From Nitrospirales bacterium (GTDB lineage Bacteria > Nitrospirota > Nitrospiria > Nitrospirales > UBA8639): DNA of 64,000 nt. The notes below the pieces were generated by a model that worked only from the letters and a program-made list of their open reading frames with translations, was not told the origin of the DNA and made no database searches. Location: NCBI GenBank assembly GCA_963555755.3, contig OY820905.2:992001-1056000 (forward strand), given 5' to 3'. Each line of letters begins with the position of its first letter. The first letter of the stretch is position 1. Made by a program: the position numbers and the translations under genes. This document shows positions 15,632 through 41,424 of this stretch, piece after piece.

Positions 15632-17665
15632 ATAGGGGTAGGGAGGGCGCATTGAGTTGCGCTCCCCCTCCCTCCGAACCGTACGTGCAGTTCTCCCGCA
15701 TACGGCTCTCCAGTCAGTAGGTTCCTATGGAGTGGACGAAACGAATATGGGCATCATTCAGGCTCGTGAACCCATGATCCGCAAAGAAGGCGTTCGGCCA
15801 CCGTTGATTGCGTGCGAGGCGTTGTCGATTCCTTCGGTTCCTTTTCAGAAGCATCCGGCGCAACCGCCGACGGATCATTCCATCGTAGGCCTTGAAGATG
15901 TTCCAAAAACAGTGCCGAAAGTAGTTGAACCACCCTTGCGTCGAGCGAGTGAGCCGGTGGAGAATTACCGCCAGCGAGTCGCCCGATTTCTGCGGCGTCA
16001 GCTCGCGGATGCGGGCGATGAACTTTCGGTGGCTCTTCGCTCGTGGAAACCGCAGCCGGCCTCGGAACGAATAGCCCAGAAACGAAAAGCTCTTCTCCCG
16101 CGAGTCCACGATGTGTGTTTTCTCGGGATGCAGTGTCAGCCCCTTGGCCTCCACCCACCGGCGCACCTCGGCCAGCGCCGCTTCGGCTTCTTCCGGCGTG
16201 CGACACAGGATGACACAGTCATCCGCGTAGCGCACCATCTGAAATCCGAGATCGGACATCCGATGGTCCAGGGGGTTGAGATAGACATTCGACAGCATGG
16301 GAGACAGCACCGCGCCTTGCGGCACACCGGCTTCCGGCGTCCACTCCCGCAGTTCTTCCAGAATCCCCTGGTTCAGACACTTCTTCACCAGGCCCACCAC
16401 ACGGCGATCCGAGATCTTCTGTTGCACTCTGGCCACCAGTCGATCTTTCGGAATCGTCTCGTAGTACTCCTGCACATCCGCGTCGACAACATACACATAC
16501 CCGGCGTCGAGCCATTCCTCGACGCACCGCAGGGCATCATGGCACCCGCGTCCGTGGCGAAAGCCGAAGCTTCGCGCATGGAACATGGCGTCCATAATCG
16601 GCTCAAGCACGTGGACCACTGCCGTTTGCACGACGCGATCCCGCACGGTCGGAATTCCCAACGGGCGCTTCGCCGACCTGTCGGGTTTGGGAATCCACCG
16701 CCGCCGCCCCGCTGCCGGACGATAGGTTCCGTCACCCAGTTCGGCTTGCAACCGATCGAGTTCCGCCCGCTCATGCTCGGCGAACTCCGAACACGTTTGC
16801 CGGTCAACGCCCGCAGCCCCGTTCTTGCCCAGGACCTTCTTGGCCGAGCAGGACAGGTTCAGGCTGCCAGACACCTTATCCCTCAACGTGTGCCATTTGC
16901 CTCCTCTCACGTTGTCTGCCATCAGTGTCGCCACCATGCGATCTGTCCACACCGCTCGATGAGCCCACTGGTCGATCCCAGGAAGCTCCCCAGCCGGGGT
17001 AGCCGAACACGGCACTGTGACGGGGATGTCATCTCGACGCGGGGTCGAGGCTTGACGTGTCGGCGGTTGAGGCATTTCACATCTACCTTCCTGCTCCCCT
17101 TCGCGCCACCGCGTTCTGGTGCACGGCTTCCCCGCTATTATGAGAGCTCTGACTTCTGTCGAGCCGCTTCATCCAACGTCATCGGTATCGCTTCGTTCGT
17201 TCCCCTGCGGCACGCGATACGGCACCGAGGGGCCTGGGCCATTGATCACGCAGCGTCCCCCACTGCGAATGGTCACGACACGGCGTCCACGTCCTTCACC
17301 CGACAGATCTCCCTGCTTAGCTCGTTTGACCTTCCGACCATTCCATCTCCAACCACCACCTTGCCATTTCGCCACGGTCGCTTTCCCACGTTACGTCACC
17401 GCCGTGACTTGCCGCGTCTATCCCCCGGGCAGACTCTCAGGTCGAAGGGATCTGCCGTCGCGCGATCAAGGGTTCGGACATCGCTAGGAGCCTCCCCGAC
17501 AGGCTTGGCCGAATCGAGTTCACGTTCGTTACGGACTGGTCGTTCGTCTCAGATTGCTCTCCACCCTTCCTCACGGAAACGCAGTGACCACTGTCGACTT
17601 CAGGCTGGTAACGTTCGCCTGAGAGGGACTTGCACCCTCCTGATCAAACGCCTTCACAGGCGCAC
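15632..17665 (-). mobile_element. Group II intron A, copy 1 (complete, 2034 nt)
   Basis: 5' GUGCG at 17665; DV GAGCCGUAUGCGGGAGAACUGCACGUACGGUUC and DVI ending ...ACCCCUAU at 15632; boundaries confirmed because removal restores the flanking palindrome. Confidence 0.92.
15714..17075 (-). CDS. ltrA: Group II intron reverse transcriptase/maturase (no endonuclease domain)
   Basis: GAAGVD, RPLGIPTVRDRVVQ, SFGFR, GVPQGAVLSP, RYADD, GWFNYF motifs. Confidence 0.92.
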   Translation of the reverse strand: MPQPPTRQASTPRRDDIPVTVPCSATPAGELPGIDQWAHRAVWTDRMVATLMADNVRGGKWHTLRDKVSGSLNLSCSAKKVLGKNGAAGVDRQTCSEFAEHERAELDRLQAELGDGTYRPAAGRRRWIPKPDRSAKRPLGIPTVRDRVVQTAVVHVLEPIMDAMFHARSFGFRHGRGCHDALRCVEEWLDAGYVYVVDADVQEYYETIPKDRLVARVQQKISDRRVVGLVKKCLNQGILEELREWTPEAGVPQGAVLSPMLSNVYLNPLDHRMSDLGFQMVRYADDCVILCRTPEEAEAALAEVRRWVEAKGLTLHPEKTHIVDSREKSFSFLGYSFRGRLRFPRAKSHRKFIARIRELTPQKSGDSLAVILHRLTRSTQGWFNYFRHCFWNIFKAYDGMIRRRLRRMLLKRNRRNRQRLARNQRWPNAFFADHGFTSLNDAHIRFVHSIGTY

Positions 17666-17850
17666 TCGCTGCAGCATCTCATGCTGCCTCTTCCTGGCGT
17701 CAGAGCCCCTTGGTCCGTGGGAAGAGGGCACGATACGATCGTGCAGCGACACAAGCAAGAAAGCTCACAGGAAGCAACGCCATGGCCAAGAAACTCCATG
17801 TGGCCAGAATTGGATGGCGGTAGGATAGAACCATATATTCTGTATGATCC

Positions 17851-18543
17851 ATCCTTACTCGCAGAGTCGGCCAGACCATCAGAATCGGAGACGACGTGTC
17901 CATTACCGTGCTCGGCGTTAAAGGCACTCAAGTAAAGGTCGGAATCAACGCACCAAAAACTCTTCCAGTACACCGCGAGGAAATCTACAGACGGATTCAG
18001 CGGGAGTTGAGCAGAAGCGGCAGAGTCAATCCCGCAAAAGCCATCAGGGGGTTGGTCAATATGGAAGAAGATGATTTCGATGAGTTCGTAGACACGGTTC
18101 AGGAAGTGACCAACAGGGGAATATCCATAGCTTGGACACCGGCTGGAAGCGACGACGTGTCGATCCAAACTCCTGTAGACGACGATGAAGCAAAATTGAT
18201 CGAAGACATAGCGGACCAATCGCAATTTTGGTGGAGTAAGACTACCTTGATCTATTTCTGCGCTGTCAATTGTGAGGAGGCTTTAAGCCAATCCCCCTTT
18301 CGCAAAGGGGGGCAGGGGGGATTTGAAGCGGGGCCAAGTGTGCGCGACACCCACGATAGTCAGAGGGAAAATCTCCCCCAACCCCTCTTTGTCAAAGAGG
18401 GGAGTTCATCCGACTTGGCTAGCCCGCATCGGTACGGCTCATCCGCGTTAATATCCTGCTGCTTCGTCATTATCCACAACATTTGCAACTGATCCGACAT
18501 AGCCAGTCATATGGGCATCTCCATCATCAGTTGGGCATACTAG
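17851..18543 (+). pseudogene. csrA: CsrA/RsmA carbon storage regulator (from codon 3 onward) with C-terminal extension, interrupted by a MITE
   Basis: [50 protein letters not shown]. The start codons are at 30129; removing MITE 18213-18495 gives ...EDIASHMGISIISWAY*. Confidence 0.9.
18213..18495. mobile_element. MITE, GGATCA-TTGCAA family
   Basis: Ends ggaccaatcgcaattttg ... tttgcaactgatcc; 8-bp TSD gacatagc. Confidence 0.85.
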
Positions 18544-18716
18544 CCAAATCCGATTTGGAATGCTGCCGGGAGGTTGAGATAATTGTGGTGTGAAAGATGA
18601 GCGACAACATTCTTACGGAAGAGGCAATGACTGCGCTTGATCGAGCCAAACAGATCGTCGCGGATATGGAAGAAATCAGCATCCCACACTCTGTCCGGGA
18701 AGAGTGTTCTGAGTTC

Positions 18717-18970: not shown

Positions 18971-19072
18971 TTTGACGCCTTCCGTCCCTATCGGGACGGC
19001 AAAGGAGCCACCAACTTCAACTCATGTTTTTAGCAATGAATGGGACATCCCCTTCGCCTCAACCCATTCGAA

Positions 19073-19558
19073 TCACCAGCTCGAGAAACCCCGCGACTTG
19101 CACCGGTTGTTGTTGAGGCTCGTGCCGCCCGAGCTGAATTTCGCACCCTTTTTAATTCCGAATTTGTAGTATAGCCGGCTACTCTTGCGGCAGCTCTTGA
19201 TGTCGCCTCCCTGTATCTCGATCACGAGCCAGACCTCGTCTCCTTCGTTGGGCCAATCATCGTATACATCAAGCTCGCAAAGTGCCTTCTGGCCACCGTT
19301 GTACCAGTTTTTCTCTCCATCGAAGATCGCGGAGCCTATCAACTTTGCGCACTTGGCACCGTATGTCTTCACGTTGCCAGTGTTCTTGTCCTTTACTTTG
19401 ATCTTGACATGCGCTCTATAGTCACCGTTGTGCTTCCATTCCAAAACCGATACCTGGTCTGCTAGAGCGACGCTGGCGGGCACCAGCAGAATCATCGTCA
19501 CAACCAGCATCAGGCACCAGTTGACCGACCCTGTCATGCAGTTCTTGTGTGTATTCAT
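19073..19558 (-). CDS. Hypothetical secreted Cys-containing protein
   Basis: AGGAG RBS; signal peptide ending ..SVALA-D; 4 Cys in the mature part; homologous fragment at 28846-29089. Confidence 0.7.
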   Translation of the reverse strand: MNTHKNCMTGSVNWCLMLVVTMILLVPASVALADQVSVLEWKHNGDYRAHVKIKVKDKNTGNVKTYGAKCAKLIGSAIFDGEKNWYNGGQKALCELDVYDDWPNEGDEVWLVIEIQGGDIKSCRKSSRLYYKFGIKKGAKFSSGGTSLNNNRCKSRGFSSW

Positions 19559-19869
19559 CACCTTCTCCTTAGTGAAAATGTGAGTGTGTGCTAATGTTAG
19601 TTGGAAATTGAAGTGGCTCCCCCACCTGTGGTGAGATGGCGTTCGACAAAGAATCGACATCTCGTCAACAGAACAAAGGAGCCACTTCATGAGCAGTATT
19701 GCGGAAATCAAGAGACGAAGCAAGAAGGAGTCTCTTCCAATATGAAATGATACTGAAGGGAGAGCATGATTCTACCATGAAATGATACTGAACAGGGTCC
19801 GGGTTCTGTTCATGATGAGGAATGCACATCATCATGAACGACACAACAATTCATATTGGAAGAGACTGG

Positions 19870-19983
19870 GATCCCTTCACTTGGCGAATGGGCATCTGTG
19901 CGGCTCACCCTGGCAGATATTCTGCGGCTTAGTCCCCTTCCCCCAAGATTTCAAATGCGAGAACCATAAATTCTGTATGATCC
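19870..19983. mobile_element. Partial MITE (right end), GGATCATACAGAA family
   Basis: Matches 43706-43818 and ends agaaccataaattctgtatgatcc. Confidence 0.7.
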
Positions 19984-20095: not shown

Positions 20096-20410
20096 TTATG
20101 CAGCTGATAGAGGCGAGATACGGTCAATCTTCTTCTTGCTGGATTTTGCCGTCTCCCAAAGATCGGTGGCGTGTTGGGCGTTCAACCAAAATTCTGGTGA
20201 ATTGCCGAACAAACGAGAAAGTCGCAACGCCATTTCTGGGCTCACTGCACGTCGTTCCCGTAACAACTCATTCACGGTTTGGCGTGACACGCCCAACGCT
20301 TGGGCAAAACTAGAAACCGTCAGCCCGTAGTCAGGCAAAAAATCCTCTCGCAACATTTCACCCGGGTGTGTCGGACGAACCTTTCGCTCTTTTCGTCTAG
20401 GAATACTCAT
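20096..20410 (-). CDS. higA: HigA family antitoxin
   Basis: PTHPGEMLREDFL...ALRLSRLFGNSPEFWLNAQ. Confidence 0.92.
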   Translation of the reverse strand: MSIPRRKERKVRPTHPGEMLREDFLPDYGLTVSSFAQALGVSRQTVNELLRERRAVSPEMALRLSRLFGNSPEFWLNAQHATDLWETAKSSKKKIDRISPLSAA

Positions 20411-20423
20411 GGGAGACCTCATC

Positions 20424-20705
20424 TCAGTGATAATCTGTTAACTCGACATCATACGCATCGCCATCCACAAATCGAAAACAAATTCTCCATTGATCATTGA
20501 CCGAGACGGAATATTGCCCAACTCGATCTCGTCCTAATTTGTGAAGCCGATTACTGGGAGGCACCTTCAAATCTTCCAACCGAACAGCCAAATCAAGGTA
20601 CTCTAATTTTCGTAAGGCTCGTCTCCAAATATCTGATGGGAATGGTTTCGATTTTCCATTCGAAAACAACTCTTCTGTGGCTCTATCAGCAAAGGTGCGA
20701 ATCAC
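20424..20705 (-). CDS. higB: HigB/RelE-ParE family toxin
   Basis: MIRTFAD...DLKVPPSNRLHKL...GQYSVSVNDQWRICFRF...DVELTDYH; upstream of higA. Confidence 0.92.
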   Translation of the reverse strand: MIRTFADRATEELFSNGKSKPFPSDIWRRALRKLEYLDLAVRLEDLKVPPSNRLHKLGRDRVGQYSVSVNDQWRICFRFVDGDAYDVELTDYH

Positions 20706-21430: not shown

Positions 21431-22102
21431 TGTTGGACTGGGGTCAGTCTTGGAACACCGGACCTTTGGAACAGGGGACGCTACCCTTTTTAGGAGTGAA
21501 AGATGCAGGGTTTCGTCCCTGCAGACGACCTCCTTTTGTTTCGGCAAAAGGAGGCAAAACCATTTTTGCCCGTGCGTGACCCCAAGGGGGTCCCTGGACC
21601 AGCACCCCGAATCAAGATGGCTCAGAAACTCGCTACGCTCAGACAGTCTTCGCCAAAGAGGTGGGATTCGGGGCACTGGCCCAGTCGCGCACGAGGGCGA
21701 TGAATTGCCAAGAACAAAATTTTAGAGAAAAAGAAACGTGGATGGGGAAGCGTCCCTTTTTGTTTTTCTTTGTCATTTCGACCGGAGGGAGAAATCTGTG
21801 GTTCGGCCACAATAAAAGATCCCCGCAGCAAGCTGACGGGGTATTCAGAGGAACAATATGATTTTGAAAATCCCCCTACCCCCCTTTTCCAAAGGGGGGA
21901 CCTAAGCGGGAACCCCGTAGCAAGCTACGGGGAATACAAAGTTCAAGATTTCTCGTAAGACTCGAAATGACAGGGCGGATGCGTGTGGCGCGGTCCGAGA
22001 AACAAGAAACATTGGAGTTCGTCTTTGGAGTTTTTTTTCTGTGGGCACCCCCGCCTTCGGATGCGGCGGAGGAACCCCCTTGGGGCCGCATACGGGCGGA
22101 CA

Positions 22103-22762
22103 ATCGACATAGGTAGGCGGTCACCCGCTTTCCCTGTCACACCACCGTACATATGGGTCCGTATACGGCGGTTCGGTGGGTTAAGCGATTGGCCACCAGG
22201 AGAGACTTCTCTCAACTGGTCACCCCTCGCCGGGCTTTCAACTGGGCGGTTCGCCGCGAGCGATTCGACACTTCCTCGTCAGTCCTTAGGGCTTCACCCC
22301 TATCCTCTGTCGGGAAGGCCAGGGTTAACTGGTTATTCAGCCGCTTGTCGCTCGTGAGTTCCGCTGCCTACATACCACTCCGCACCATTCAGGCCTTCAT
22401 CCCTGTCGGGACTACTATGCCCTCTGCTGACTCCTCCCGCCCGCTCTGAACTGATCACTCAGTCCTCAGTCTTGCTGCCAAGACAGACGAGAGGTCTCCC
22501 GAGGTACGCTCAACCGCCTTCAGCGCACGACCGCCAGATTTACACCCCGCCCCCTTGATGGATATGGACTTTGCGAATCCATGCTCGCTCGTCCGGAACG
22601 GACTGCCTCGTATCTGGTTCTTGTCCATCGGCCCGCGCCTTTGCTCTACGCTTCCTTCAGACCCCGCCTCACGACGACGCCCTTGCGCTTCGCGATGACT
22701 TCACCTCCATCAGGTTGTCAAAGGGACTTGCACCCTCAAGCTGTTGAACATGCTCGGCACAC
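22103..22762 (-). mobile_element. ORF-less group IIC intron (660 nt)
   Basis: 5' GUGUGCCGAGCAUG at 22762; short IIC-type DV GAACCGCCGUAUACGGACCCAUAUGUACGGUGGUGU; 3' ...UGUCGAU at 22103; no RT ORF between. Confidence 0.85.
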
Positions 22763-22831
22763 TGGTTTTGGACACGTTTGCCGAAACAACAGTGCCTTGT
22801 CGTGTGGGGGCGACACCCCTTAAAAACATTC

Positions 22832-23577
22832 GGCTCTTCAGGAAAATTTGTGGGTCGAGCACCTAACGAATCCTTTCCAAGGCACTGAAAAACCAACGAA
22901 TTTTCCCACCGGGGACCGGTTTTATTTCGATGCTCATATTCAATTGACTCATGGGGAAGTTTCGGATCAGTTGCAATTTTGGTGGAGTCGAGGCCTATGG
23001 CGATGACGGACATACTATGCGAGGGGCTCCTGTTCTGATTTAGGCGTCCAATCCCGTTCCGTTCGTGGTGAGCTTGTCGAACCATGAATGGTACACATTG
23101 AAGTTTCTGACCCTTCGACAAGCTCAGGGCGAACGGATTCTGTCAAGGAAGGTCTGACTCAAGACGCGAGTCTCACTCCACCAAAATTGCGATTGATCCG
23201 AAGTTTCCCTCAGGGTCCACAAGCCGATTAAGCCTACGGTGCAGGGGCTATGGCATGTGGCCTTGTGGGAAACCTCCTGAGTAGCGCCCTTATGGGGCGC
23301 GGCCCACCCAGACGACGGAAAGTAACTCGTGAGGCAACTGAGGAGGCACAGGAGAGAAGAAAGGCCGAGGTCTGGTGAACCTGAATCCGTCATCCCCGAC
23401 GTTGGTTATCGGGGATCTATCTTAAGAACGAACCTGGATTCCCGATAACAGACGTCGGGAATGACGCGGGGAGGTACCTAGCGCCCTTATGGCGCGCGGC
23501 GCACCCGGACGACGGAGGATAGCATGAAGTTACTTAGGAGTTACCTGAGAAGTACCCACAAATTCTTCGGAGGAGCC
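22832..23577. mobile_element. 746-bp composite MITE (GGCTC ends), copy 1
   Basis: TIRs ggctcttcaggaaaatttgtgggt / acccacaaattcttcggaggagcc; 8-bp TSD aaacattc; near-identical inverted copy at 34156-34901. Confidence 0.9.
22964..23199. mobile_element. Nested MITE, GGATCA-TTGCAA family
   Basis: Ends ggatcagttgcaattttggtggag / ctccaccaaaattgcgattgatcc; 8-bp TSD gaagtttc; also present at 34534-34769. Confidence 0.88.
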
Positions 23578-23587
23578 AAACATTCTT

Positions 23588-23887
23588 CTACGAGAGACGT
23601 GGTTTCCAGGTATCAGGGTGACGGAAAAGGTGAAGAACTGCTAGGACTGTGACTTCTTCTCCAGTGGGGTTGAAATACACACCATATGGAAATCGGTGCA
23701 GTAGCGCACGACGAACTGGATCGTCAATGGCAGGAAATTGAAGCGGCATGGTGGCGACACGCTCGAAAAGAACAGACAGTTGGTCCAAAAACTCTACGCC
23801 CAAATTGCGACGCTGTTCTTCATACCATAGCGTAGCATTCACCACATCAAGATCGGCTTCTGGATGGAACCTGAGGGGAAGAGGCAT
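23588..23887 (-). CDS. RelE/ParE family toxin
   Basis: FHPEADLD...WYEEQ...LGVEF...RRALLHRFPYGVYF...VLAVLH...RHPDTW. Confidence 0.88.
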   Translation of the reverse strand: MPLPLRFHPEADLDVVNATLWYEEQRRNLGVEFLDQLSVLFERVATMPLQFPAIDDPVRRALLHRFPYGVYFNPTGEEVTVLAVLHLFRHPDTWKPRLS

Positions 23888-24135
23888 TAATTGGATTGAC
23901 GGGCTTGGAGCTGCTGTTCGATTTCAGCCCGCACCTCGTCCCAAGATCTCCCTGCTTCAGGATGTTGCTCGAAATCCTGCAGCCGTCGACGAATGATATC
24001 AAGGTGCCAGTCCGGCGTGGATACCGCTTCGGGCGAAGTGGCAATTTGTTCCCAGAGGCTCTGGACATATTCGATCTGCTCGGGAACGGAAAGTTGAGCA
24101 AAGCCTGGTGGAGGACTGAGAGTGCGCTTTGGCAT
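23887..24135 (-). CDS. Putative addiction-module antitoxin
   Basis: LSVPEQIEYVQSLWEQI...PDWHLDIIRRRL...SWDEVR; stop overlaps the toxin start (TAATG). Confidence 0.82.
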   Translation of the reverse strand: MPKRTLSPPPGFAQLSVPEQIEYVQSLWEQIATSPEAVSTPDWHLDIIRRRLQDFEQHPEAGRSWDEVRAEIEQQLQARQSN

Positions 24136-24805: not shown

Positions 24806-26140
24806 GAGGGTGTACGATTAACTGTGTAACTGGTTATCATGACCGTTCCATTGAATAAGGAGGAATGATGACCAGAGGTAAGACCCCAAGCCAAACGGAC
24901 GTGCTGCTCGATGAATTGGTGGAGGGCTGTGAGTCGTCCGACGATCTGTTCGGGAAACATGGGCTCCTGGAACGCCTGACGAAACGCCTGGTGGAACGCG
25001 TCTTGCGGGCGGAACTCACGGAGCATTGAGGCTATGCACCGCATGCCCCGGAGGGCCGGGAATCTGGCAATGCTCGCAATGGGTGTACGCCCCAAACGGT
25101 GCAAACCGCGAGCGGAGATCTTCCGCTCCAGGTGCCTCGTGATTGCCAAGGCAGCTTTGAGCCGATGGTGGGGCCCACACGCCAGCGGCGCTTGGACGGG
25201 TTTGATGACACGGTCCTGGCCTTGTATGCCCGGGGCTTGACGACTCGGGATATTCAGGGGCATCTGGAAGAGCGCTATGACGTGGAGGTGTCGCCCACGC
25301 TCATTTCGACGATTACCGATGCGGTGGTGGAGGATGTTCGAACTTGGCAGAGTCGGCCCTTGGACGCCGTGTATCCGATCCTGTATGTCGATTGCCTGTT
25401 TGTGACATCTCGGCAAGAGGGTGTTGTCAAGAATAACGCCGTGTCGGTCGCCTTGGGAGTGAACCTGCAAGGGGAGAAAGAACTCCTGGGACTCTGGGTG
25501 AGTGAGACGGAAGGCGCCAAGTTCTGGCTGTCGGTCTTTACGGCACTCCAGGGCCGCGGGGGCGAAGATGGCTTTGTGGCCTGCGTCGATGGGCTCGCGG
25601 GGTTGCCTGCCGCCTTGGAAACGGTGTTCCCCCCCACTCAGGTGCAACTGTGCATTGGCCATAAGGTCCGTCAGTCCTTGCGGTATGTGGTGTGGAAAGA
25701 GCGGCGGGCCGTGGCGCGGGATCTACGGGCCCTCTATGGCGCCGCGACGTTGTCGGAGGCGGAAGCCGCATTCGAGCGATTTGCCCCGACGTGGGATGCG
25801 AAATATCCGACGAGCAGTGCGACGTGGCGACGGGATTGGGCGCGGCTGACCGTCTTCTTTGACTATCCCCCAGCAATCCGAACAGTCAGCTATACGACGA
25901 ATGCGATTGAGTCACTCCATTTTTCATTACGTAAAGTCCTGAAAAGTCGCGGGGCCTTTCCGACCGATGAATCAATCCTGAAAGTGTTGTATCTCGGGAG
26001 GCTGCGGATTGCCAAAAAATGGACGATGCCCATTCCGGACTGGAAGCGAGCCCTCAACCAATTCGCCATCCTTTTAGGAGATCGGGTGCCAAGACGCTAA
26101 GCAAAGAAAGAATCAGTTACACAGTTAACTGGACAGGCCC
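24806..26140 (+). mobile_element. IS256-family element, degenerate
   Basis: Imperfect TIRs gagggtgtacgattaactgtgtaact / agttacacagttaactggacaggccc; no TSD seen. Confidence 0.82.
24865..26100 (+). pseudogene. IS256 transposase with nonsense codon
   Basis: AELTEH*GY (TGA ~25027), VPRD, LYARGLTTRDI, WQSRPL, EGAKFW, YTTNAIES motifs. Confidence 0.88.
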
Positions 26141-28353: not shown

Positions 28354-28845
28354 ATGACTTACAAAAATGCAGTAGTGATCACGATCGCGATTGTTGGGTT
28401 TCTGCTGACGGCGTGGATGGCCCCGGTGGCCTTTGCCGGAAAATGCGACTTGACCGACCTTGACTGCTGGGGCCCGGATCAGAAGTGCAACATCAAGTTC
28501 AAGAACGAGACGGGCATGGGCTCAGGTTCCGGTGGCCGGACGGGCTACGAACAGATATCGAGCGCCGCAACGATCAAGCTGTCGGCCAGGAAGGAAGACG
28601 GGACGAGAGCGGGGAGAAACACGCTGCAGATTCTCGCAGGAGCCGACAAGACCATGAATCTCGACAAGAAGAATGATTTCAACAGCATACGGATAGACAG
28701 GCTCGGGAGCCAAGCCCAGCTATTTTGCCAAGACATAAAAACAACCTTGAAAGGCAACGGTGTCTGCAAGGTCTTCGTGGGCCAGATATTCGGCAAATCA
28801 CAAACAGTCGTCAACTGTGACAACGGCAACGTCCTTGGCGGGTGA
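28354..28845 (+). CDS. Hypothetical secreted Cys-rich protein (paralog 1)
   Basis: AGGAG RBS; signal peptide ..VAFA-G; 6 Cys; paralog at 29120. Confidence 0.78.
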   Translation: MTYKNAVVITIAIVGFLLTAWMAPVAFAGKCDLTDLDCWGPDQKCNIKFKNETGMGSGSGGRTGYEQISSAATIKLSARKEDGTRAGRNTLQILAGADKTMNLDKKNDFNSIRIDRLGSQAQLFCQDIKTTLKGNGVCKVFVGQIFGKSQTVVNCDNGNVLGG

Positions 28846-29089
28846 GAGCAAGACGCTCAAGCTGGTACCGGACCACATTAACTACGGGAGCGGTGACGAG
28901 CCCGTCTGCAACCTCACCGAGTACACCGAGATCTGGCTGCGAGTAGAGATCGCAGGCGGCGATATCGAATCGTGCCGCACGGATGGCAAGAAGTTCTCTT
29001 ACGCGCCGGAGGGCGGCAAGCGGCGGCACCACCCTGAACAACAACCGATGCAAGCCCGGGACCTACACACCCCTAGGGTGCATCCCTGA
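28846..29089 (+). pseudogene. Fragment homologous to 19073-19558 protein
   Basis: EIWLRVEIAGGDIESCR vs EVWLVIEIQGGDIKSCR; GGTTLNNNRCK (shifted frame) vs GGTSLNNNRCK. Confidence 0.7.
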
Positions 29090-29119
29090 CGAGAAGATCT
29101 CTAAGAGGAGGAGAAAGTG

Positions 29120-29614
29120 ATGAAGACGCTCGCGATTTCTGCGTTTCTGCTGACCGGCTTGATCTCCTCGGCGGCCTCCGCCCAATGCGACCTGACCGGC
29201 TTGGAATGCTGGGGTCCGCACAAGAAGTGCAACATCAAGTTCAAGAACGAGACGGGCATGGGCTCAGGTTCCGGTGGCGGGACCGGCCACGATCAGGTTT
29301 CATCCGTGGCAACGATCAAAGTGTCGGCCCGCAAAGGGGATAATACGAGGGCGGGGAGCAACACGCTGCAGATCGCGGCGGGAGCCAACAAGACCATGAA
29401 TCTCGACAAGAAGCAAGGCTTTGACAAGATACGGATAGAGAATGTGCTCGGGGGCCGATCCCCCAAACTGACATGCGACGATATAAAAAAGACCTTGAAT
29501 GGCAGTGGTATCTGTAAGGTCTTCAAAGCACTGGATCCGGATGGGATACTATGGCTGGCCGTCACTTGCAATAATGCCGAGGTTGTTGTAATTGCCGAGA
29601 AGTTTCCCGAATGA
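29120..29614 (+). CDS. Hypothetical secreted Cys-rich protein (paralog 2)
   Basis: GAGGAGGAG RBS; signal peptide ..AASA-Q; shares CDLT-x-L-x-CWGP-xx-KCNIKFKNETGMGSGSGG and KTMNLDKK with 28354. Confidence 0.78.
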   Translation: MKTLAISAFLLTGLISSAASAQCDLTGLECWGPHKKCNIKFKNETGMGSGSGGGTGHDQVSSVATIKVSARKGDNTRAGSNTLQIAAGANKTMNLDKKQGFDKIRIENVLGGRSPKLTCDDIKKTLNGSGICKVFKALDPDGILWLAVTCNNAEVVVIAEKFPE

Positions 29615-30128
29615 CAACGATCTCGACGACCCACTTGCAGGCCTACCAGGCCGAGGGTATGAGCCACCGGCACCGTGCCGGTCTCTCCCGACGAAAGACC
29701 GCACAGTTCACTGGGCTATGGCCCGATCTGGTTAAATGAAGCTGCTAGACAACACCACCAGATTTAGGAGAGCCTCCACCAAGCGCAAGGTTGCAGTTCT
29801 ACGATGACGGATTTAGTGGACATAAAAGCCACCCCAAATCCTTCGGTTGGACTTTCGTTGAGATTCTTTTGATTCGGCACTGCTATGCTCGTCGCTCCAA
29901 AGTTCAGATTGCGGCATAGCGAGCGGGTGCCACGCATGTCGCAAGGGCACGTTATCTTAGATAGTGATATTCAACATTCTGTGTGATTCGACTCCTGGGG
30001 TTGCCCTCCTTGCTCCTGTCCTGGGTGCCACCTATGGCTAATTCAAGCTTAGGGACGTTCACCTAACTAGCTGTTTTGGTTGCACGCTCGATGATCTATA
30101 TCCCCTGAGAAGAACGAGGGACGCGGCG

Positions 30129-30142
30129 ATGCTCATCCTTAC
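30129..30142 (+). pseudogene. csrA: Displaced 5' end of csrA (RBS + ATG CTC ATC CTT AC)
   Basis: GAGGGA RBS; M-L-I-L-T; last 8 nt atccttac repeated at 17851-17858. Confidence 0.8.
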
Positions 30143-30310
30143 GGATCATGCAGAATGTAGGGTTCTGGCAGCACAATACGATCAGGTGCACATAAAGTTA
30201 TGGCACTCCTCGTGGGTGATGTCGCCTCTCCTTTTGAGCGAATGGCGTCGTCTTGTATTTTTAGGATAGGGGTAGGGAGGGCGCATTGAGTTGCGCTCCC
30301 CCTCCCTCCG

Positions 30311-32304
30311 GTAGGGTCGAGGACTGGCGCGCCAACGGTAGGGGTCGGTGGCTCCTCCACCCCTTTCAGAGTGGGCCTCAATCCGACTCCCCTGGTCACG
30401 GTTCCAGTCCCCGCCACCTCAAACCCGGCGTGCTGATTTCCAGCACCGGGCTTTCCTGGATGCTTCACCTCAAGGGTTATGTGACCTCTCAGCCTGGAAG
30501 GACTTTCATGCCGACCCGTTGTACCGCACTCGGTAATCTCCATATAAGCCGAGTACCGTGTAGAGCCAAACCTTACTCCACCTCTTCCAGCCAAAACCTC
30601 GACGGTGGCGCACTCGCATCATGTGCCGCCGGACCTTCCGCTCCACCCAATCCTTCACGTAGGAGAAACACCGACTCGCATGCCCAATCCGAAAGTCGTT
30701 CACCCAGCCCCGTACGATCGGATTGATCATCGCGATCATCCGTCCCACCGGCTGGGATTGTCCGCGTCGGAACACTGCCTTGAGCTTCCGCAGCCACGCG
30801 GTGCGCCGCTTCACCTTCGGTATGTACTGCGGGCGCCACACCCCACGCCGCGACCGCACACGCCGAAAGTCAAAGCCCAGAAAGCCGAAGCTGCCTCCCT
30901 GACTCAGGTCCACGATCCGGCTCTTCTCCTCATTCACCTGAAGGGCTCATTGGGCCAACGCCTCTCGCAGCTTCCGCTCCGCGACCTGCGCCAGTTGTGC
31001 GTGGCGGCGATAGCCATCCACTAACACGACGAGGTCATCCGCAAACCGAACATACTCGAGATACGTATACTGGCCCTGCCGGGTTGTCTCCTTCAGCTGC
31101 TCCAGCCTCTCATCCACTTCCGTGAGATAGAGGTTGGCCAGCAGCGGGGCAATCACACCCCCTTGAGGCACCCCACGCGGGCCGGACGCCTTGACGATGA
31201 GGTTCACCAGCCGCAGGATCGCGGGATCCTGGATGCGTCGGGCCACCTTCGCCAGCAGCCGGTCATGCCGCACCGTGTCGAAGAAGGCCGCCAGATCCAC
31301 ATCAATCACTCGCGTCTTGTTCTGCACCATCGCCTGAGCCACCCGGCCAATCGCCTGGTGGGCTGTCCGTTTCGGGCGATACCCATACGACCCATCACGA
31401 AAATCCGCCTCAAAGATCGGTTCCAGCAGGAGCTTGAGCGCTCCCTATACCACGCGGTCCCGAATCGCGGGTATCCCTAAGACGCGGACTCGTCCACCGC
31501 CTTTCGAAATCTCCACGTGCCGGTTCCGCATCGGTCGGTAGGTCTGCGTGACCAGTTCGTCCCGCAGTCGTGCAAGAAAGGGCTCCACCCCCGTGGCCTC
31601 GATGACCGCAAACGTCACCCCATCAATGCCGGGGGCTCCGTTGTTTTTCTTGGCCATCGCATAGGCCGCGCGTAGCGTCGCCTCTTTGCACACGTGGACG
31701 TACAGGCCCCACACCCGCCATCGCTTCTCAGCCTTCGCCTTGACGTAGAGCCGCTGTCGCAGGTCTTGCAGTGTAATGGACGCCGTTGTCATCTCGTCCC
31801 TGCCTCCCATGTTGATCACAGCCTACAGCCAGTAGGGCTCCTTTGCTCCACAGGCATTACCCTGCTTCCTCGCTCCTACGAGCCCCTCCGCCACCCTCTC
31901 GTCTTCGACTCACTTCCCAGAGAGCTGGTTATAGAGCCGATCTTCCTCCAGGGATTTCGCCCTGGGACAAGGAGGGCTTCTCCAGTTGCGTCGTCTGTCC
32001 TTGCTCCCGTGCTGTCGCTCTCACCCCGCCGGAGTGGTCAGGCGTCTCAGCCCTATTTCGCCTGCCCATGCGGTCTTCGTCCTACGGTCAGGGACTCGAC
32101 CTCCGAGGTTCCGTACTTTCGAGGCTACCTCTGCGTTCACTTGCGTTACGGCCCGGGAACTCGCTCACCATCCTCTACGATGGCTTTGTCGATGGGCTTC
32201 AGCGTCTCGGTTTCTCTCCACGCTGCCATCCAAGCTACAGGGCTCAGGCTCTTACCCTGGTGGGCTTGCTTCCCACTGAACAGTCTCGCCTTACCTGGAC
32301 ACAC
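30311..32304 (-). mobile_element. Group II intron B (1994 nt)
   Basis: 5' GUGUG at 32304; DV AAGCCCGGUGCUGGAAAUCAGCACGCCGGGUUU; long DVI ending ...GACCCUAC at 30311; no TSD, as expected for reverse splicing. Confidence 0.9.
30506..31792 (-). pseudogene. ltrA: Intron B reverse transcriptase/maturase with two in-frame stops
   Basis: GAPGIDG, LGIPAIRDRVV*, YGYRP, GVPQGG, RFADD, FLGFDF in one frame; stops at 31445-31447 and 30947-30949. Confidence 0.88.
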
Positions 32305-32406
32305 AACCGTACGTGCGGTTCTCCCAAGCCGTTCACTTAATCTGTTGACACAAACCAGCAAACAGACATAAACAGCGCTTGTTTGCTGGCTTTCTTGTTT
32401 TGGATC

Positions 32407-34203
32407 ATGCAGAAAAAATCTTCCGCAACTTCTACGCTGAAGCACCCTCGGATACCGCTCGAGTACGGTGGCTTCCAGATCAACCACTGCAAGTCTCCGG
32501 TCTGCTCGAACTACGGCGTTCCGCCAGAACAAACATCGGTGCGTGGAAAAAATAGCTACACTCTGGATTCACGCAACCAAGGCATTTCATCCTGTATCTG
32601 CACGTCCTGCGGCGAAGGATTCCCTCTCAAGAGCAACCTCGGCATCGCAGAAGAAGTCGAGCGCATGTCGGCCTACCTGTCGCCTCGTGAGGTGGCGTTC
32701 TGCCGTAACGATGCCTGTACCAACCATACCGGTCAGGTGCCCGTAGGTACCGCTGGGGCATATGCCTCGTTCGGCAAGACCGCGATTGGCAGCCCCCGCT
32801 GGCGCTGTAGCGTCTGCGGTAAGACGTTCTCACAGAACACCAAGGCCACCGCCCGGCAGCGGGAACATCACAAGAACAAGACCATTTTCAAACTGCTGGT
32901 CAACAAGCTGCCCGTGCGCCGAATCATCGAAGTCGCCGACATCCACCCCAAGACCTTCTACCACCGCCTCGACTTCCTCCATCGCCAGTGCCAATCATTT
33001 GCCGCCCACCGCGAGCACGCCCTATCCACCCTCCCCATTCGGCGACTGTCCCTCGGCGTGGACCGGCAGGACTACCTTGTGAACTGGATGGTTCGCAAGG
33101 ACAAGCGCAACATTCAGCTATCGGCCATTGCATCAGTGGACAACGAACACGGTTACGGCTTCGGTGTCCACCTTCACTTCGACCCTTCTCTGGACAGCGA
33201 AGCTGTCCAAGCCGAAGTCGAGAAGAGCGGCGACCTTGGCATGCCCTATCCGCATCGTCGCGTTGCACGTCTGTGGCTCAATGCAGACCATGAGCGAGCC
33301 AGTGCCAAATCCCTACGCACTTCGCGGCGCAAACCCGGACTGCCAACGCAGATCGATGAAGCCTATGCCGCAGCATTGATGCGTGACGATATCGAAAGCC
33401 CCGATGCGCCGTCGCCCGTAGAACGACTTCCTGAATACGGGATGCAAACCCATGGCGAGTACACCATGTCTGGGCATTTTTTCTTCCTCAAACGCCTGCT
33501 GGGCAATATCCAAAAGTGGCGCTTCTTTATCGACCAAGACCCTGGACTGCGAGCCGCGTGCCTATCGGCGTTCCACGACGAGATCCGAGGCCGCACGGCG
33601 GATGCCTTCTCTGTTCGCATCACCAAAGATCTGACGGTGGACGAAACGCGTCAAAAATACAACGAAGCGAAGATGCTGTTCGTGCACGCAGAACTCGCGC
33701 ACCCAAAGATGAAGCCGCAGGAGGTCAAGTTGCTGCTGATCAAAGAGCGTCTGGCCTGTATGACGCCGCACGGGAAGTGGCAGGATCGGTGGCTTGACCA
33801 TCCTTTCCCGACCATGAGCGAGCCAGAGAAGACAGTGGCCTCCCTCACCAATCTGGGCGACTACGACGAAGAACACAAAGCTTGGCTCTACAACAAAGCG
33901 AGCTTGCATGGTGTCGATTCGTTCTTCAACCAAGTGCGTCGACGGCTCTCCCTGCTGGAGCGTCCGATCCATTCCAAATCCAACAATGGTCGGATATGGA
34001 ACGGATATTCTCCATATAACCCGGGTAATGTTGCAAAAGTACTCGACATCATGCGCACGGTGCATAACTACATCCTGACCGGCAAGGATGGCAAGACGCC
34101 AGCTGTGCGACTTGGATTGGCCCAAGCGCCGCTGGACTACGAAGACATTATTTATGGCTCCTCCGAAGAATTTGTGGGTACTTCTCAGGTAACTCCTAAG
34201 TAA
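32407..34203 (+). CDS. Putative transposase with two zinc ribbons, HTH and RNase H-like core; native C-terminus displaced by MITE
   Basis: CKSPVC..CTSC and CRNDAC..CSVC; RRIIEVADIHPKTFYHRLD (HTH); LGVD, FIDQD, GVDSFF acidic motifs; TPAVRLGLA. Native end ...EDIIYFASTD* at 34925-34927, inside the right TIR. Confidence 0.72.
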   Translation: MQKKSSATSTLKHPRIPLEYGGFQINHCKSPVCSNYGVPPEQTSVRGKNSYTLDSRNQGISSCICTSCGEGFPLKSNLGIAEEVERMSAYLSPREVAFCRNDACTNHTGQVPVGTAGAYASFGKTAIGSPRWRCSVCGKTFSQNTKATARQREHHKNKTIFKLLVNKLPVRRIIEVADIHPKTFYHRLDFLHRQCQSFAAHREHALSTLPIRRLSLGVDRQDYLVNWMVRKDKRNIQLSAIASVDNEHGYGFGVHLHFDPSLDSEAVQAEVEKSGDLGMPYPHRRVARLWLNADHERASAKSLRTSRRKPGLPTQIDEAYAAALMRDDIESPDAPSPVERLPEYGMQTHGEYTMSGHFFFLKRLLGNIQKWRFFIDQDPGLRAACLSAFHDEIRGRTADAFSVRITKDLTVDETRQKYNEAKMLFVHAELAHPKMKPQEVKLLLIKERLACMTPHGKWQDRWLDHPFPTMSEPEKTVASLTNLGDYDEEHKAWLYNKASLHGVDSFFNQVRRRLSLLERPIHSKSNNGRIWNGYSPYNPGNVAKVLDIMRTVHNYILTGKDGKTPAVRLGLAQAPLDYEDIIYGSSEEFVGTSQVTPK

Positions 34204-34901
34204 CTTCATGCTATCCTCCGTCGTCCGGGTGCGCCGCGCGCCATAAGGGCGCTAGGTACCTCCCCGCGTCATTCCCGACGTCTGTTATCGGGAATCCAGG
34301 TTCGTTCTTAAGATAGATCCCCGATAACCAACGTCGGGGATGACGGATTCAGGTTCACCAGACCTCGGCCTTTCTTCTCTCCTGTGCCTCCTCAGTTGCC
34401 TCACAAGTTACTTTCCGTCGTCTGGGTGGGCCGCGCCCCATAAGGGCGCTACTCAGGAGGTTTCCCACAAGGCCACATGCCATAGCCCCTGCACCGTAGG
34501 CTTAATCGGCTTGTGGACCCTGAGGGAAACTTCGGATCAATCGCAATTTTGGTGGAGTGAGACTCGCGTCTTGAGTCAGACCTTCCTTGACAGAATCCGT
34601 TCGCCCTGAGCTTGTCGAAGGGTCAGAAACTTCAATGTGTACCATTCATGGTTCGACAAGCTCACCACGAACGGAACGGGATTGGACGCCTAAATCAGAA
34701 CAGGAGCCCCTCGCATAGTATGTCCGTCATCGCCATAGGCCTCGACTCCACCAAAATTGCAACTGATCCGAAACTTCCCCATGAGTCAATTGAATATGAG
34801 CATCGAAATAAAACCGGTCCCCGGTGGGAAAATTCGTTGGTTTTTCAGTGCCTTGGAAAGGATTCGTTAGGTGCTCGACCCACAAATTTTCCTGAAGAGC
34901 C
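34156..34901. mobile_element. 746-bp composite MITE, copy 2 (inverted)
   Basis: Reverse complement of 22832-23577; own 8-bp TSD ttatttat. Confidence 0.9.
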
Positions 34902-34965
34902 TTATTTATTTTGCATCAACAGATTAAGTGAACGGCTTGCAGTTCTCCCGCATACGGCTCTCCAG

Positions 34966-36327
34966 TCAGTAGGTTCCTATGGAGTGGACGAAACGAATAT
35001 GGGCATCATTCAGGCTCGTGAACCCATGATCCGCAAAGAAGGCGTTCGGCCACCGTTGATTGCGTGCGAGGCGTTGTCGATTTCTTCGGTTCCTTTTCAG
35101 AAGCATCCGGCGCAACCGCCGACGGATCATTCCCTCGTAGGCCTTGAAGATGTTCCAAAAACAGTGCCGAAAGTAGTTGAACCACCCTTGCGTCGAGCGA
35201 GTGAGCCGGTGGAGAATTACCGCCAGCGAGTCGCCCGATTTCTGCGGCGTCAGCTCGCGGATGCGGGCGATGAACTTTCGGTGGCTCTTCGCCCGTGGAA
35301 ACCGCAGCCGGCCTCGGAACGAATAGCCCAGAAACGAAAAGCTCTTCTCCCGCGAGTCCACGATGTGTGTTTTCTCGGGATGCCGTGTCAGCCCATTGGC
35401 CTCCACCCACCGGCGCACCTCGGCCAGCGCCGCTTCGGCTTCTTCCGGCGTGCGACACAGGATGACACAGTCATCCGCGTAGCGCACCATCTGAAATCCG
35501 AGATCGGACATCCGATGGTCCAGGGGCTTGAGATAGACATTCGACAGCATGGGAGACAGCACCGCGCCTTGCGGCACACCGGCTTCCGGCGTCCACTCCC
35601 GCAGTTCTTCCAGAATCCCCTGGTTCAGACACTTCTTCACCAGGCCCACCACACGGCGATCCGAGATCTTCTGTTGCACTCTGGCCACCAGTCGATCTTT
35701 CGGAATCGTCTCGTAGTACTCCTGCACATCCGCGTCGACAACATACACATACCCGGCGTCGAGCCATTCCTCGACGCACCGTAGGGCATCATGGCACCCG
35801 CGTCCGTGGCGAAAGCCGAAGCTTCGCGCATGGAACATGGCGTCCATAATCGGCTCAAGCACGTGGACCACTGCCGTTTGCACGACGCGATCCCGCACGG
35901 TCGGAATTCCCAACGGGCGCTTCGCCGACCTGTCGGGTTTGGAAATCCACCGCCGCCGCCCCGCTGCCGGACGATAGGTTCCGTCACCCAGTTCGGCTTG
36001 CAACCGATCGAGTTCCGCCCGCTCATGCTCGGCGAACTCCGAACACGTTTGCCGGTCAACGCCCGCAGCCCCGTTCTTGCCCAGGACCTTCTTGGCCGAG
36101 CAGGACAGGTTCAGGCTGCCAGACACCTTATCCCTCAACGTGTGCCATTTGCCTCCTCTCACTTTGTCTGCCATCAGTGTCGCCACCATGCGATCTGTCC
36201 ACACCGCTCGATGAGCCCACTGGTCGATCCCAGGAAGCTCCCCAGCCGGGGTAGCCGAACACGGCACTGTGACGGGGATGTCATCTCGACGCGGGGTCGA
36301 GGCTTGACGTGTCGGCGGTTGAGGCAT
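34966..36327 (-). CDS. ltrA: Group II intron A reverse transcriptase/maturase, copy 2
   Basis: 453 aa; differs from 15714-17075 at a few residues; YADD intact. Confidence 0.92.
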   Translation of the reverse strand: MPQPPTRQASTPRRDDIPVTVPCSATPAGELPGIDQWAHRAVWTDRMVATLMADKVRGGKWHTLRDKVSGSLNLSCSAKKVLGKNGAAGVDRQTCSEFAEHERAELDRLQAELGDGTYRPAAGRRRWISKPDRSAKRPLGIPTVRDRVVQTAVVHVLEPIMDAMFHARSFGFRHGRGCHDALRCVEEWLDAGYVYVVDADVQEYYETIPKDRLVARVQQKISDRRVVGLVKKCLNQGILEELREWTPEAGVPQGAVLSPMLSNVYLKPLDHRMSDLGFQMVRYADDCVILCRTPEEAEAALAEVRRWVEANGLTRHPEKTHIVDSREKSFSFLGYSFRGRLRFPRAKSHRKFIARIRELTPQKSGDSLAVILHRLTRSTQGWFNYFRHCFWNIFKAYEGMIRRRLRRMLLKRNRRNRQRLARNQRWPNAFFADHGFTSLNDAHIRFVHSIGTY

Positions 36328-37551
36328 TGCACATCTACCTTCCTGCTCCCCTTCGCGCCACCGCGTTCTGGTGCACGGCTTCCCAGCTATTATGAGAGCT
36401 CTGACTTCTGTCGAGCCGCTTCATCCAACGTCATCGGTATCGCTTCGTTCGTTCCCCTGCGGCACGCGATACGGCACCGAGGGGCCTGGGCCATTGATCA
36501 CGCAGCGTCCCCCACTGCGAATGGTCACGACACGGCGTCCACGTCCTTCACCCGACAGATCTCCCTGCTTAGCTCGTTTGACCTTCCGACCATTCCATCT
36601 CCAACCACCACCTTGCCATTTCGCCACGGTCGCTTTCCCACGTTACGTCACCGCCGTGACTTGCCGCGTCTATCCCCCGGGCAGACTCTTAGGTCGAAGG
36701 GATCTGCCGTCGCGCGATCAAGGGTTCGGACATCGCTAGGAGCCTCCCCGACAGGCTTGGCCGAATCGAGTTCCCGTACGTTACGGACTGGTCGTTCGTC
36801 TCAGATTGCTCTCCACCCTTCCTCACGGAAACGCAGTGACCACTGTCGACTTCAGGCTGGTAACGTTCGCCTGAGAGGGACTTGCACCCTCCTGATCAAA
36901 CGCCTTCACAGGCGCACTCGCTGCAGCATCTCATGCTGCCTCTTCCTGGCGTCAGAGCCCCTTGGTCCGTGGGAAGAGGGCACGATAAGATCGTGCAGCG
37001 ACACAAGCAAGAAAGCTCACAGGAAGCAACGCCATGGCCAAGAAACTCCATGTGGCCAGAATTGGATGGCGGTAGGATAGAACCAGATATTCTGTATGAT
37101 CCCTAATCCCTCCCCGGATTCCGGTTCGGTACCCGAACCGACACTCCCCCTTTGCCCGTTTCCACCCTACATGCCACGAGCAAGCCACAGATTTGGCATA
37201 ATCCCTGGCAAAAGGGCCAGGAAGCCCCGACTCACCGGATGCACTCCCGCCTTTCAGACGGCGAAGTGTGCGGATGGACCCCTCACCGCGTTCTTTGGTG
37301 CGTTGCGGTCTAGTCAAAAAGGCCTTTTGAATTTCCTATTCCCGACTGAAAAAATCGGTGCAGGCATGCCACGCGCAGCGAGGCCAGAATGATCATCTTC
37401 GGTTTTATCGAACGGTTCTCTAATCGCAGAAAGTGGCATGGATCGGCCGATGGTTTGGCACCACTGGGGGCGGATGCGCAAACGGGCAAAGACTTCTTAA
37501 CGACGGGTCAGTGAGAATGGAGTCAAGGCGAAAAGGGGGGAACGAAAGAAA

Positions 37552-41420: not shown

Positions 41421-41424
41421 ATAC

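What the first reader, a model, noticed from the sequence alone, without database searches (positions are those of the whole stretch)
15632..37102. csrA split in two and permuted: trace of a circular DNA integrated between two intron copies
Seen: the RBS and first codons of csrA (ATG CTC ATC CTT AC, 30129-30142) lie 12.3 kb downstream of the rest of the gene (ATC CTT ACT CGC..., from 17851). The shared 8-mer atccttac abuts a left MITE end at 30143 (ggatcatgcagaa...) and a right end at 17850 (...ttctgtatgatcc). Intact members of this MITE family at 43491 and 48659 make 8-bp TSDs. Also, 15688-17850 and 34940-37102 are 2163-bp direct repeats. Recombination between them would excise a ~19.25-kb circle on which the two TSD copies flank one element inside csrA. 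Inference: a circular molecule carrying csrA, TA pairs and secreted proteins entered the chromosome either by a single crossover through intron A or as a replicative-transposition cointegrate. The two copies have different 3'-exon flanks, so the history has more than one step.
Basis: partly seen in the sequence, partly recalled or inferred. Interest (0 to 1): 0.85.

Follow-up and report, generated by a model that had tools for sequence, protein, structure and literature searches.

The report
Swapped csrA halves between transposon-intron repeats
A spare, foreign-looking regulator gene (csrA) has been cut by a small transposon and its two halves now lie in swapped order 12 kb apart, likely because a DNA circle carrying the gene recombined into the chromosome through a repeated transposon-plus-intron element; it is a clear scar of known recombination in a genome crowded with mobile DNA, not a new system.

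Summary
Confirmed: the first codons of a csrA gene (30129-30142) lie 12.3 kb downstream of the rest (from 17851), each half ending in the same 8-mer against an end of a 308-bp MITE; chance is about 1e-5. The gene is an accessory copy; the host's fliW-linked csrA is intact elsewhere.

New here: the repeat is a MITE carrying group II intron A. The left intron copy has exons from two different target sites, and its SNPs switch partner at 16912-16949, fitting a later recombination that removed the left MITE end. The csrA 3' half is also duplicated 2.5 Mb away. The likely mobiliser is IS1595-family.

A circle joined through the repeat is the best reading (about 0.6: homologous crossover 0.43, transposase-made fusion 0.17). 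Tandem duplication plus two deletions gives the same order with no circle (0.30); misassembly 0.07. No replicon or integrase gene, free circle or intact allele was found. The scan has noted permuted-circle scars on other DNA. Known kind, modest interest. A side lead may be better: an IS inside the repeat sits in intron domain V in 4 of 4 own copies and 3 of 6 foreign relatives.

The parts
15580..15631 (-). MITE positions 208-259 in reverse orientation: the 3' exon of intron A's second target site (MITE 207/208); the MITE end beyond it is lost
   Evidence: same exon as the intact site-2 copy at C1:3054536-3060616
15632..17665 (-). Group II intron A, copy A1; intact 453-aa RT/maturase ORF at 15714-17075; SNP mosaic with a switch at 16912-16949
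17666..17850 (+). MITE positions 124-308 (right end); 5' exon of intron A's first target site (MITE 123/124)
17851..17858 (+). TSD half 1 (ATCCTTAC)
17851..18543 (+). 3' part of the accessory csrA (CsrA domain plus about 80-aa unique tail), interrupted again by a 283-bp insertion at 18213-18495 with an 8-bp TSD; second copy without that insertion at C1:3545914
19073..19558 (-). Predicted secreted protein without Pfam family; 90% identical allele beside the second csrA 3' copy
19722..19983 (.). Broken junction J1: 5' 129 bp of an rve-domain IS (to 19850) joined to the inner right part of a 328-bp MITE (19856-19983, no left end)
20096..20705 (-). HigB-like toxin and HTH antitoxin pair
22082..23578 (.). 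ORF-less group II intron-like repeat (22082-22818) and a 747-bp element with a 7-bp TSD (22832-23578)
23588..24135 (-). ParE-like toxin (just under the Pfam cut-off) and addiction-module antitoxin
24806..26140 (+). IS256-family element without TSD between unrelated fragments (broken junction J2)
26282..27750 (+). IS4-family element with TSD, one of 21 copies
28354..29614 (+). Two paralogous predicted secreted proteins, and between them a fragment related to the 19073 protein
30116..30142 (+). RBS-like GAGGGA and first codons of csrA; 30135-30142 is TSD half 2
30143..30265 (+). MITE positions 1-123 (left end); 3' exon of intron A site 1
30266..36917 (-). Intron A copy A2, with its 3' domains split by the two nested elements below
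30311..32304 (-). Group II intron B nested near the DV/DVI boundary of A2; ORF broken; 38-41 differences from five other copies
32326..34938 (+). IS1/IS1595-like element (582-aa transposase, weak NCBIfam IS1 match) in domain V of A2, 11-bp TSD with one mismatch; carries a 747-bp element at 34155-34901
36918..37102 (+). MITE positions 124-308 (right end of the nested element)
37103..37343 (+). Last 241 bp of an IS91-like (Y2 transposase) element, starting exactly at the MITE end; no matching left part in the genome

Best explanation
The two halves of an accessory csrA lie in swapped order inside two direct copies of a MITE-plus-intron element, most likely because a circular DNA whose csrA had been hit by that element crossed over once with a chromosomal copy of it, and a later recombination likely trimmed the left copy. 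Steps: (1, shown) intron A sits at position 123/124 of a 308-bp IS1595-type MITE, and a composite of this kind has its own 8-bp TSD at C1:4584715-4587056. (2, inferred) One composite sat in an IS91-like element at this locus and another inserted into codons 3-5 of csrA on a circle, duplicating ATCCTTAC. (3, inferred) A single homologous crossover within the 2.3-kb composite opened the circle, putting the 3' half behind the left copy and the 5' half before the right copy. (4, strongly inferred) The left copy then recombined through intron A with an upstream copy that sat at the intron's other MITE site (207/208), deleting the left MITE end and the left part of the IS91-like element. (5, inferred) More insertions and at least two deletions eroded the former circle, and the 3' half was later copied to C1:3.546 Mb. 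The gene is probably dead in both places; the host csrA is unaffected.
For: Swapped TSD with chance about 1e-5; 16 of 20 two-ended MITE copies have a local 8-bp TSD (at most 1 mismatch) and this is the only split pair not explained by duplicated flanks. A1 has a site-2 3' exon and a site-1 5' exon. At informative SNPs A1 sides with the site-2 copy at 3 of 4 sites left of 16912 and with A2 at 13 of 13 sites right of 16949 (clustering p about 8e-4), the direction the exons predict. The right flank begins inside an IS91-like element and its left partner is missing from the genome, which step 4 explains without an extra event. Cargo looks foreign: top CsrA-domain relatives are mostly 60-81% identical and the named ones are gammaproteobacterial, against 44% for the host copy; 0 of 40 relatives has more than a 37-49% domain match; csrA-like genes occur in 206 PLSDB records (several top rows are chromosome-sized); two TA pairs. 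Both flanks of csrA hold members of one secreted-protein family, as expected of one locus. Precedents: IS-shared circles reintegrating by recombination (PMC12561309, passages) and exon shuffling between two bacterial intron copies (PMC2882425, passages).
Against: No rep, relaxase or integrase among the ORFs scanned in the 12.3 kb. No free circle or intact csrA allele seen: no such joint among the 15 of 22 joints shown, and depth of the middle is 0.66-1.04 of the per-copy IS4 depth (a rough measure). With four intron copies the SNP switch alone could also be blamed on A2, A3 or A4; only the exons point to A1, and one left-hand site (16143) disagrees. TA pairs and related secreted proteins are common on this chromosome, so they do not prove a plasmid. 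The second 3' half sits behind a MITE without intron A and with a different haplotype, which needs extra events. Relatives lack the locus, so the ancestral order is unknown.
Confidence: 0.43

Rival explanations
1. No circle: the MITE-intron composite inserted into csrA on the chromosome, the region was duplicated in tandem (junction at J1 or at the TSD-less IS256), the first copy lost its 5' half by recombination with the site-2 intron copy, and the second lost its 3' half by an adjacent deletion from the MITE right end.
For: Gives the same order and predicts that the right parts of A1 and A2 are sisters (13 shared sites; shared MITE states at 161 and 220). 4 of 20 two-ended MITE copies have unmatched flanks, so deletions at MITE ends occur. 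Two broken junctions lie in the middle. The genome is heavily rearranged: mutS2 adjoins the gene at 45360 in 3 of 3 relatives examined but is 282 kb away here; 18% of C1 is repeated 25-mers. Adjacent deletions by IS are common (PMC11708052, passages).
Against: Needs two deletions that each remove one whole duplicated arm, with no remnant left in the window (self-BLAST). The displaced 3' half at 3.546 Mb is not simply the lost arm: it is identical to the window copy over 1.07 kb while the right 900 bp of A1 and A2 differ at 7 sites, so it looks younger, and core genes on both sides of it are collinear in 2 of 2 same-genus relatives.
Confidence: 0.3
2. A circle was fused by the transposase itself: replicative transposition of the composite into csrA (unresolved cointegrate), or inverse transposition using the inner ends of two existing copies; then the same intron-mediated deletion.
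For: Fewest events. TSD halves on the inner sides of two direct copies are the cointegrate signature (PMC4471558, passages). The right parts of A1 and A2 are sisters.
Against: The only element found with these ends and a transposase is IS1595-family (C1:3591571-3593090), and the IS1595 member ISApl4 forms IS circles (PMC12561309, passages). 16 of 20 two-ended MITE copies are simple insertions. The outer left end, which would carry the donor TSD, is deleted, so the key check is impossible.
Confidence: 0.17
3. Misassembly: a separate circle, or two strain variants, were threaded into the chromosome through the 2.2-kb repeat.
For: The source population is mixed (a 14-kb alternative-haplotype contig). 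No listed contig spans the repeats.
Against: 4.6 Mb in one contig with repeat copies resolved to separate haplotypes points to long reads (inference); only 2.8 kb and 7.2 kb need spanning. Local junctions agree with public runs: contigs in 3 of 4 runs pass 30142 into the MITE and one passes 17851, though by only 27-29 letters, under the tool's 31-letter bar. If the middle were a free circle, the circle reading would be stronger, not weaker.
Confidence: 0.07

Closest known systems
Translocatable units and pseudo-compound transposons (IS26, PMC4196232, search listing only; IS1595-family ISApl4/Tn7560, PMC12561309, passages)
   Same: Passenger DNA between two directly repeated elements, no TSD around the whole, explained by a circle with one element recombining with a resident copy.
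   Different: The repeat is a non-autonomous MITE carrying a group II intron; the opened gene marks where the circle was cut; no selected cargo is evident; one copy has lost an end.
Unresolved replicative cointegrates traced by TSD halves (IS26; He et al. 2015, PMC4471558, passages)
   Same: Identical 8-bp flanks at single ends of two different copies, used as tracers.
   Different: IS26 is a proven cointegrate former; the likely mobiliser here is IS1595-family, and most copies are simple insertions.
Exon shuffling by recombination between bacterial group II intron copies (TeI4f/TeI4g, PMC2882425, passages; chimeric relaxases, PMC7947834, passages)
   Same: An intron whose two exons come from different insertion sites.
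   Different: Here both sites lie in one MITE family, on opposite strands, and the reciprocal product is missing.
Plasmid or F-factor integration through shared IS copies (Hfr formation; recalled, no call)
   Same: Single crossover between two copies of a repeat fuses a circle to the chromosome.
   Different: No replicon or transfer gene is left, so a plasmid origin is not shown.

Membership tests
CsrA/RsmA family (split gene) | CsrA domain above curated cut-off | tested here: met
   Pfam PF02599 75.2 bits (cut-off 27); NCBIfam PRK01712 93.8 (cut-off 73)
CsrA/RsmA family (split gene) | Intact reading frame with start codon | tested here: not met
   First two codons 12.3 kb away; an in-frame stop lies just before 17851; second 3' copy also lacks them
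CsrA/RsmA family (split gene) | RNA binding | not testable with these tools
   needs assay
IS1595-family MITE | Terminal inverted repeats shared with an IS1595 transposase element | tested here: met
   C1:3591571-3593090 has like ends and PF12762 plus PF12760
IS1595-family MITE | 8-bp target duplication | tested here: met
   16 of 20 two-ended copies
IS1595-family MITE | Mobilised by that transposase | not testable with these tools
   inferred from shared ends only
Group II intron (intron A) | RT/maturase ORF, GTGYG start, AY end, DV/DVI | tested here: met
Group II intron (intron A) | EBS-IBS pairing with both target sites | tested here: inconclusive
Pseudo-compound transposon / translocatable unit (IS26 type) | Passenger between two directly repeated elements, no outer TSD | tested here: met
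Pseudo-compound transposon / translocatable unit (IS26 type) | Bounding elements are intact IS26/IS6-family IS | tested here: not met
   MITE-intron composites, one lacking its left end
Pseudo-compound transposon / translocatable unit (IS26 type) | Free circle detectable | tested here: inconclusive
   short-read contigs cannot span the repeat; depth not raised
Replicative cointegrate | Target TSD halves inside two direct copies | tested here: met
Replicative cointegrate | Donor TSD at the two outer ends | tested here: inconclusive
   left outer end deleted; no partner for the right flank
Replicative cointegrate | Transposase known to form cointegrates | tested here: inconclusive
   IS1595-family; the one paper read shows IS circles and does not mention cointegrates
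Integrated plasmid or ICE | Replication, relaxase or integrase gene | tested here: not met
   none among the ORFs scanned; may have been deleted at J1 or J2
Integrated plasmid or ICE | Foreign cargo and TA modules | tested here: met

The most novel reading that the evidence does not exclude
An IS1595-family transposase, acting on a non-autonomous MITE that carries a group II intron as passenger, fused a foreign circular replicon to the chromosome as an unresolved cointegrate. That would be a genomic footprint of replicative (or inverse) transposition in a family whose one member read about here forms IS circles, and would show MITE-intron composites acting as replicon-fusing units.
Probability: 0.15. 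Interest if true: 0.55.

Novelty: new member of a known kind. Interest (0 to 1): 0.3.

Why it matters
As it stands it is a well-preserved worked example: a split gene and its TSD record where a DNA segment was opened, and intron exons and SNPs record the next event. It shows a group II intron turning a 308-bp MITE into a 2.3-kb recombination substrate with two landing sites on opposite strands. It has little functional weight, since the broken csrA is accessory. The 2.16-kb repeats could still delete the 19.25-kb segment, and the two TA pairs may oppose that loss (inference from recalled TA biology). It would matter more if the transposase proved to make cointegrates.

Tried and rejected
Chance match of the 8-mer: rejected. 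Loss of the host's only csrA: rejected. The joint 30265 to 17666 in all four runs looks like a circle junction but is what intron-free MITE copies elsewhere give; not used. Contig C2 as an excised circle: rejected, it starts inside an IS and ends inside a gene. A reciprocal exchange between the right element and the copy at 3.546 Mb: flanks do not form a TSD and core genes around that copy are collinear in two relatives. Searches for an intact relative of the long csrA: nothing useful in metagenome contigs (1 locus with a 16-aa match), protein clusters (the two top hits are tandem-domain CsrA proteins), the Atlas, 40 relatives or plasmids (0 records at 80% cover). Atlas hits for the 29120 protein were all under 0.9. 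Genome-wide scan for other swapped TSDs: the first script mis-set many boundaries; in the rerun only 3 of 14 families listed gave usable TSDs (11 of 13, 6 of 10, 10 of 10) and no orphan had a swap partner. Depth of the middle against its own flanks and core genes stayed unmeasured. Literature searches found no paper on this locus, on IS1595 cointegrates or on an IS family that targets intron domain V; the library lacks most subscription papers, and no supplements were read.
Full report
Observation. The sequence is as described. ATCCTTAC occurs at 17851 and 30135, after a MITE right end (17850) and before a MITE left end (30143). The repeats 15688-17850 and 34940-37102 differ at 16 of 2163 positions. 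The frame from 17851 matches Pfam CsrA from position 3 of 53, and 30129-30134 encode the missing M-L. Among 23 left and 22 right MITE ends, 0.005 chance matches are expected, and about 8e-6 with the in-frame start. The gene is an accessory csrA with an 80-residue tail that found no relative. The host keeps an intact csrA beside fliW, 44% identical.

What the repeat is. The window is G000:C1:992001-1056000, in a 4.6-Mb contig of which 18% is repeated 25-mers. The MITE is 308 bp; 16 of 20 two-ended copies carry a local 8-bp TSD with at most one mismatch. An element with like ends and an IS1595 transposase lies at C1:3591571-3593090. Group II intron A has four near-full copies. It uses two sites in the MITE: 123/124 on the reverse strand (intact example with TSD at C1:4584715-4587056) and 207/208 on the forward strand (C1:3054536-3060616). 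So 30143 and 37102 are the ends of one element: MITE, intron A2, intron B at 30311-32304, an IS at 32326-34938 and a 747-bp element inside that. Its right flank starts inside an IS91-like element, and no left end in the genome carries the matching 8-mer.

The second step can be placed. The left copy A1 has the site-1 5' exon but the site-2 3' exon. At sites that split the four copies two against two, A1 sides with the site-2 copy at 16530, 16691 and 16911 (one site, 16143, disagrees) and with A2 at all 13 sites from 16950 to 17283 (p about 8e-4 for the clustering). With four sequences any one could be the recombinant; only the exons single out A1. The reciprocal product is absent, so this was most simply a deletion between directly oriented intron copies. 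Such exon swaps between bacterial intron copies are described (PMC2882425, passages; PMC7947834, passages).

The middle 12.3 kb. It holds the csrA 3' half, three predicted secreted proteins and a fragment, a HigBA pair, a ParE-like pair, and about half repeated DNA. No replication, relaxase or integrase gene was found. The IS4 and the 747-bp element have local TSDs, but two junctions are broken: an IS 5' end fused to the inside of another MITE at 19850/19851, and an IS256 with no TSD between unrelated fragments (only 1 of 4 related IS256 copies shows a near TSD, so this is weak). Any original circle may therefore have been larger. The cargo looks foreign, and csrA-like genes occur in plasmid records, but TA pairs and related secreted proteins are widespread on this chromosome.

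The 3' half, from the last MITE bases to 19850, is also at C1:3545906-3547623. There it follows a MITE without intron A, with a third intron 8 bp inside its right end, and a left flank that matches nothing. It is identical to the window copy over 17851-18917 apart from the 283-bp insertion, then differs at 34 positions in 18918-19657. Core genes around it are collinear in both same-genus relatives checked. It looks like a late copy into another island, and both forms appear in two of three DNA-like runs. The 5' half is single-copy.

Population data. Contigs of three runs pass from the 5' half into the MITE without stopping at 30142, and one passes 17851, though by under 31 letters; no joint for an intact csrA is among the 15 of 22 joints shown. 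The middle has 0.66-1.04 of the per-copy IS4 depth in 15 values from three runs, so no amplified circle is evident; the tool warns that such depths are not copy numbers. Depth against the flanks was not measured.

Mechanism. TSD halves on the inner sides of two direct copies arise when a circle bearing the element recombines with a resident copy, or when replicative transposition fuses two molecules (PMC4471558, passages; PMC12561309, passages). Either, followed by the intron-mediated deletion, also explains why the right flank has lost its partner. I favour the homologous crossover (0.43) over transposase-made fusion (0.17), because most copies are simple insertions and the IS1595 member ISApl4 forms IS circles. 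A tandem duplication followed by two deletions gives the same order with no circle (0.30); unmatched MITE flanks (4 of 20) and broken synteny make it plausible here. Misassembly is unlikely (0.07) but untested. No relative holds the locus, so the sequence alone cannot settle circle against duplication.

Comparison and verdict. It works like a translocatable unit or IS-mediated plasmid integration, but fails membership of the IS26 type (wrong element) and of integrated plasmids (no replicon gene). The scan has noted permuted-circle scars on other DNA and introns homing into transposon ends; none is on this locus, and these notes were not checked. New member of a known kind; interest 0.3. Papers were seen as passages or as search listings only (PMC4196232); no supplements were read. 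Hfr formation and TA-mediated stabilisation are recalled, not from a call.

Side lead. The IS at 32326-34938 abuts domain V of a group II intron in 4 of 4 copies in this genome and, in the same register, in 3 of 6 relatives of 76-84% identity from other taxa. Domain V was read by alignment there; Rfam gave only one weak hit. Four more distant relatives (40-48%) showed no intron hit and their ends were not found. Two searches found no paper on such targeting. It may deserve its own follow-up.

Noticed in passing
window 32326-34938; C1:775533, 1251116, 3058591; L052, L053, L054: An IS1/IS1595-like element (582-aa transposase, 11-bp TSD) sits in catalytic domain V of a group II intron in 4 of 4 own copies and 3 of 6 close relatives from other taxa, in the same register. 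Possibly an intron-targeting, intron-killing IS; not found in two paper searches.
   Followed up: partly
window 30311-32304 and 15 other hits in C1: Intron B inserts near the DV/DVI boundary of other group II introns in 15 of 16 hits (read by eye), with three tandem copies at C1:2160017-2165998.
   Followed up: partly
C1:3543877-3545905, 4119903-4121931, 3024663-3026691: A third intron inserts 8 bp inside the right end of MITE-family elements in 3 of 3 copies.
   Followed up: no
C1:775533-777513: A copy of the domain V IS has flanks from two different introns, so IS copies have also recombined.
   Followed up: no
C1:492614-494391: MITE-family ends with a near TSD enclose a 175-aa predicted secreted protein and no transposase: a passenger-gene cassette.
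   Followed up: no
contig C2 (14,119 bp): Alternative haplotype of C1:4141231-4153174 with an extra IS; shows a mixed population.
   Followed up: yes
C1:3535972-3542805 and 1083460-1090293: 6.8-kb IS-flanked segment duplicated at 99.96%.
   Followed up: no
window 45360 and C1:755597; C1:3.48-3.59 Mb: mutS2 adjoins the 45360 gene in 3 of 3 relatives but is 282 kb away here; a block near 3.48-3.59 Mb has reversed GC skew.
   Followed up: partly
window 4879-7294, 11731-14146 and 7277-9250: Two inverted, 99.96% identical IS66-like elements with a DruA-like first gene, and a Tn5-like transposase with a DruA-like N-terminal part.
   Followed up: no
P0002, P0003, P0023: Tandem CsrA-CsrA proteins and a CsrA plus cold-shock-domain fusion exist in the protein collection.
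   Followed up: no
window 38117-42725: Large repeat-rich predicted surface protein (Ig and InlB-B-like repeats) with an internally repeated region.
   Followed up: no
C1:372315-380777 and 765312-767247: Arrays of small predicted secreted proteins in IS-rich islands; the first is related to the 19073 protein.
   Followed up: no
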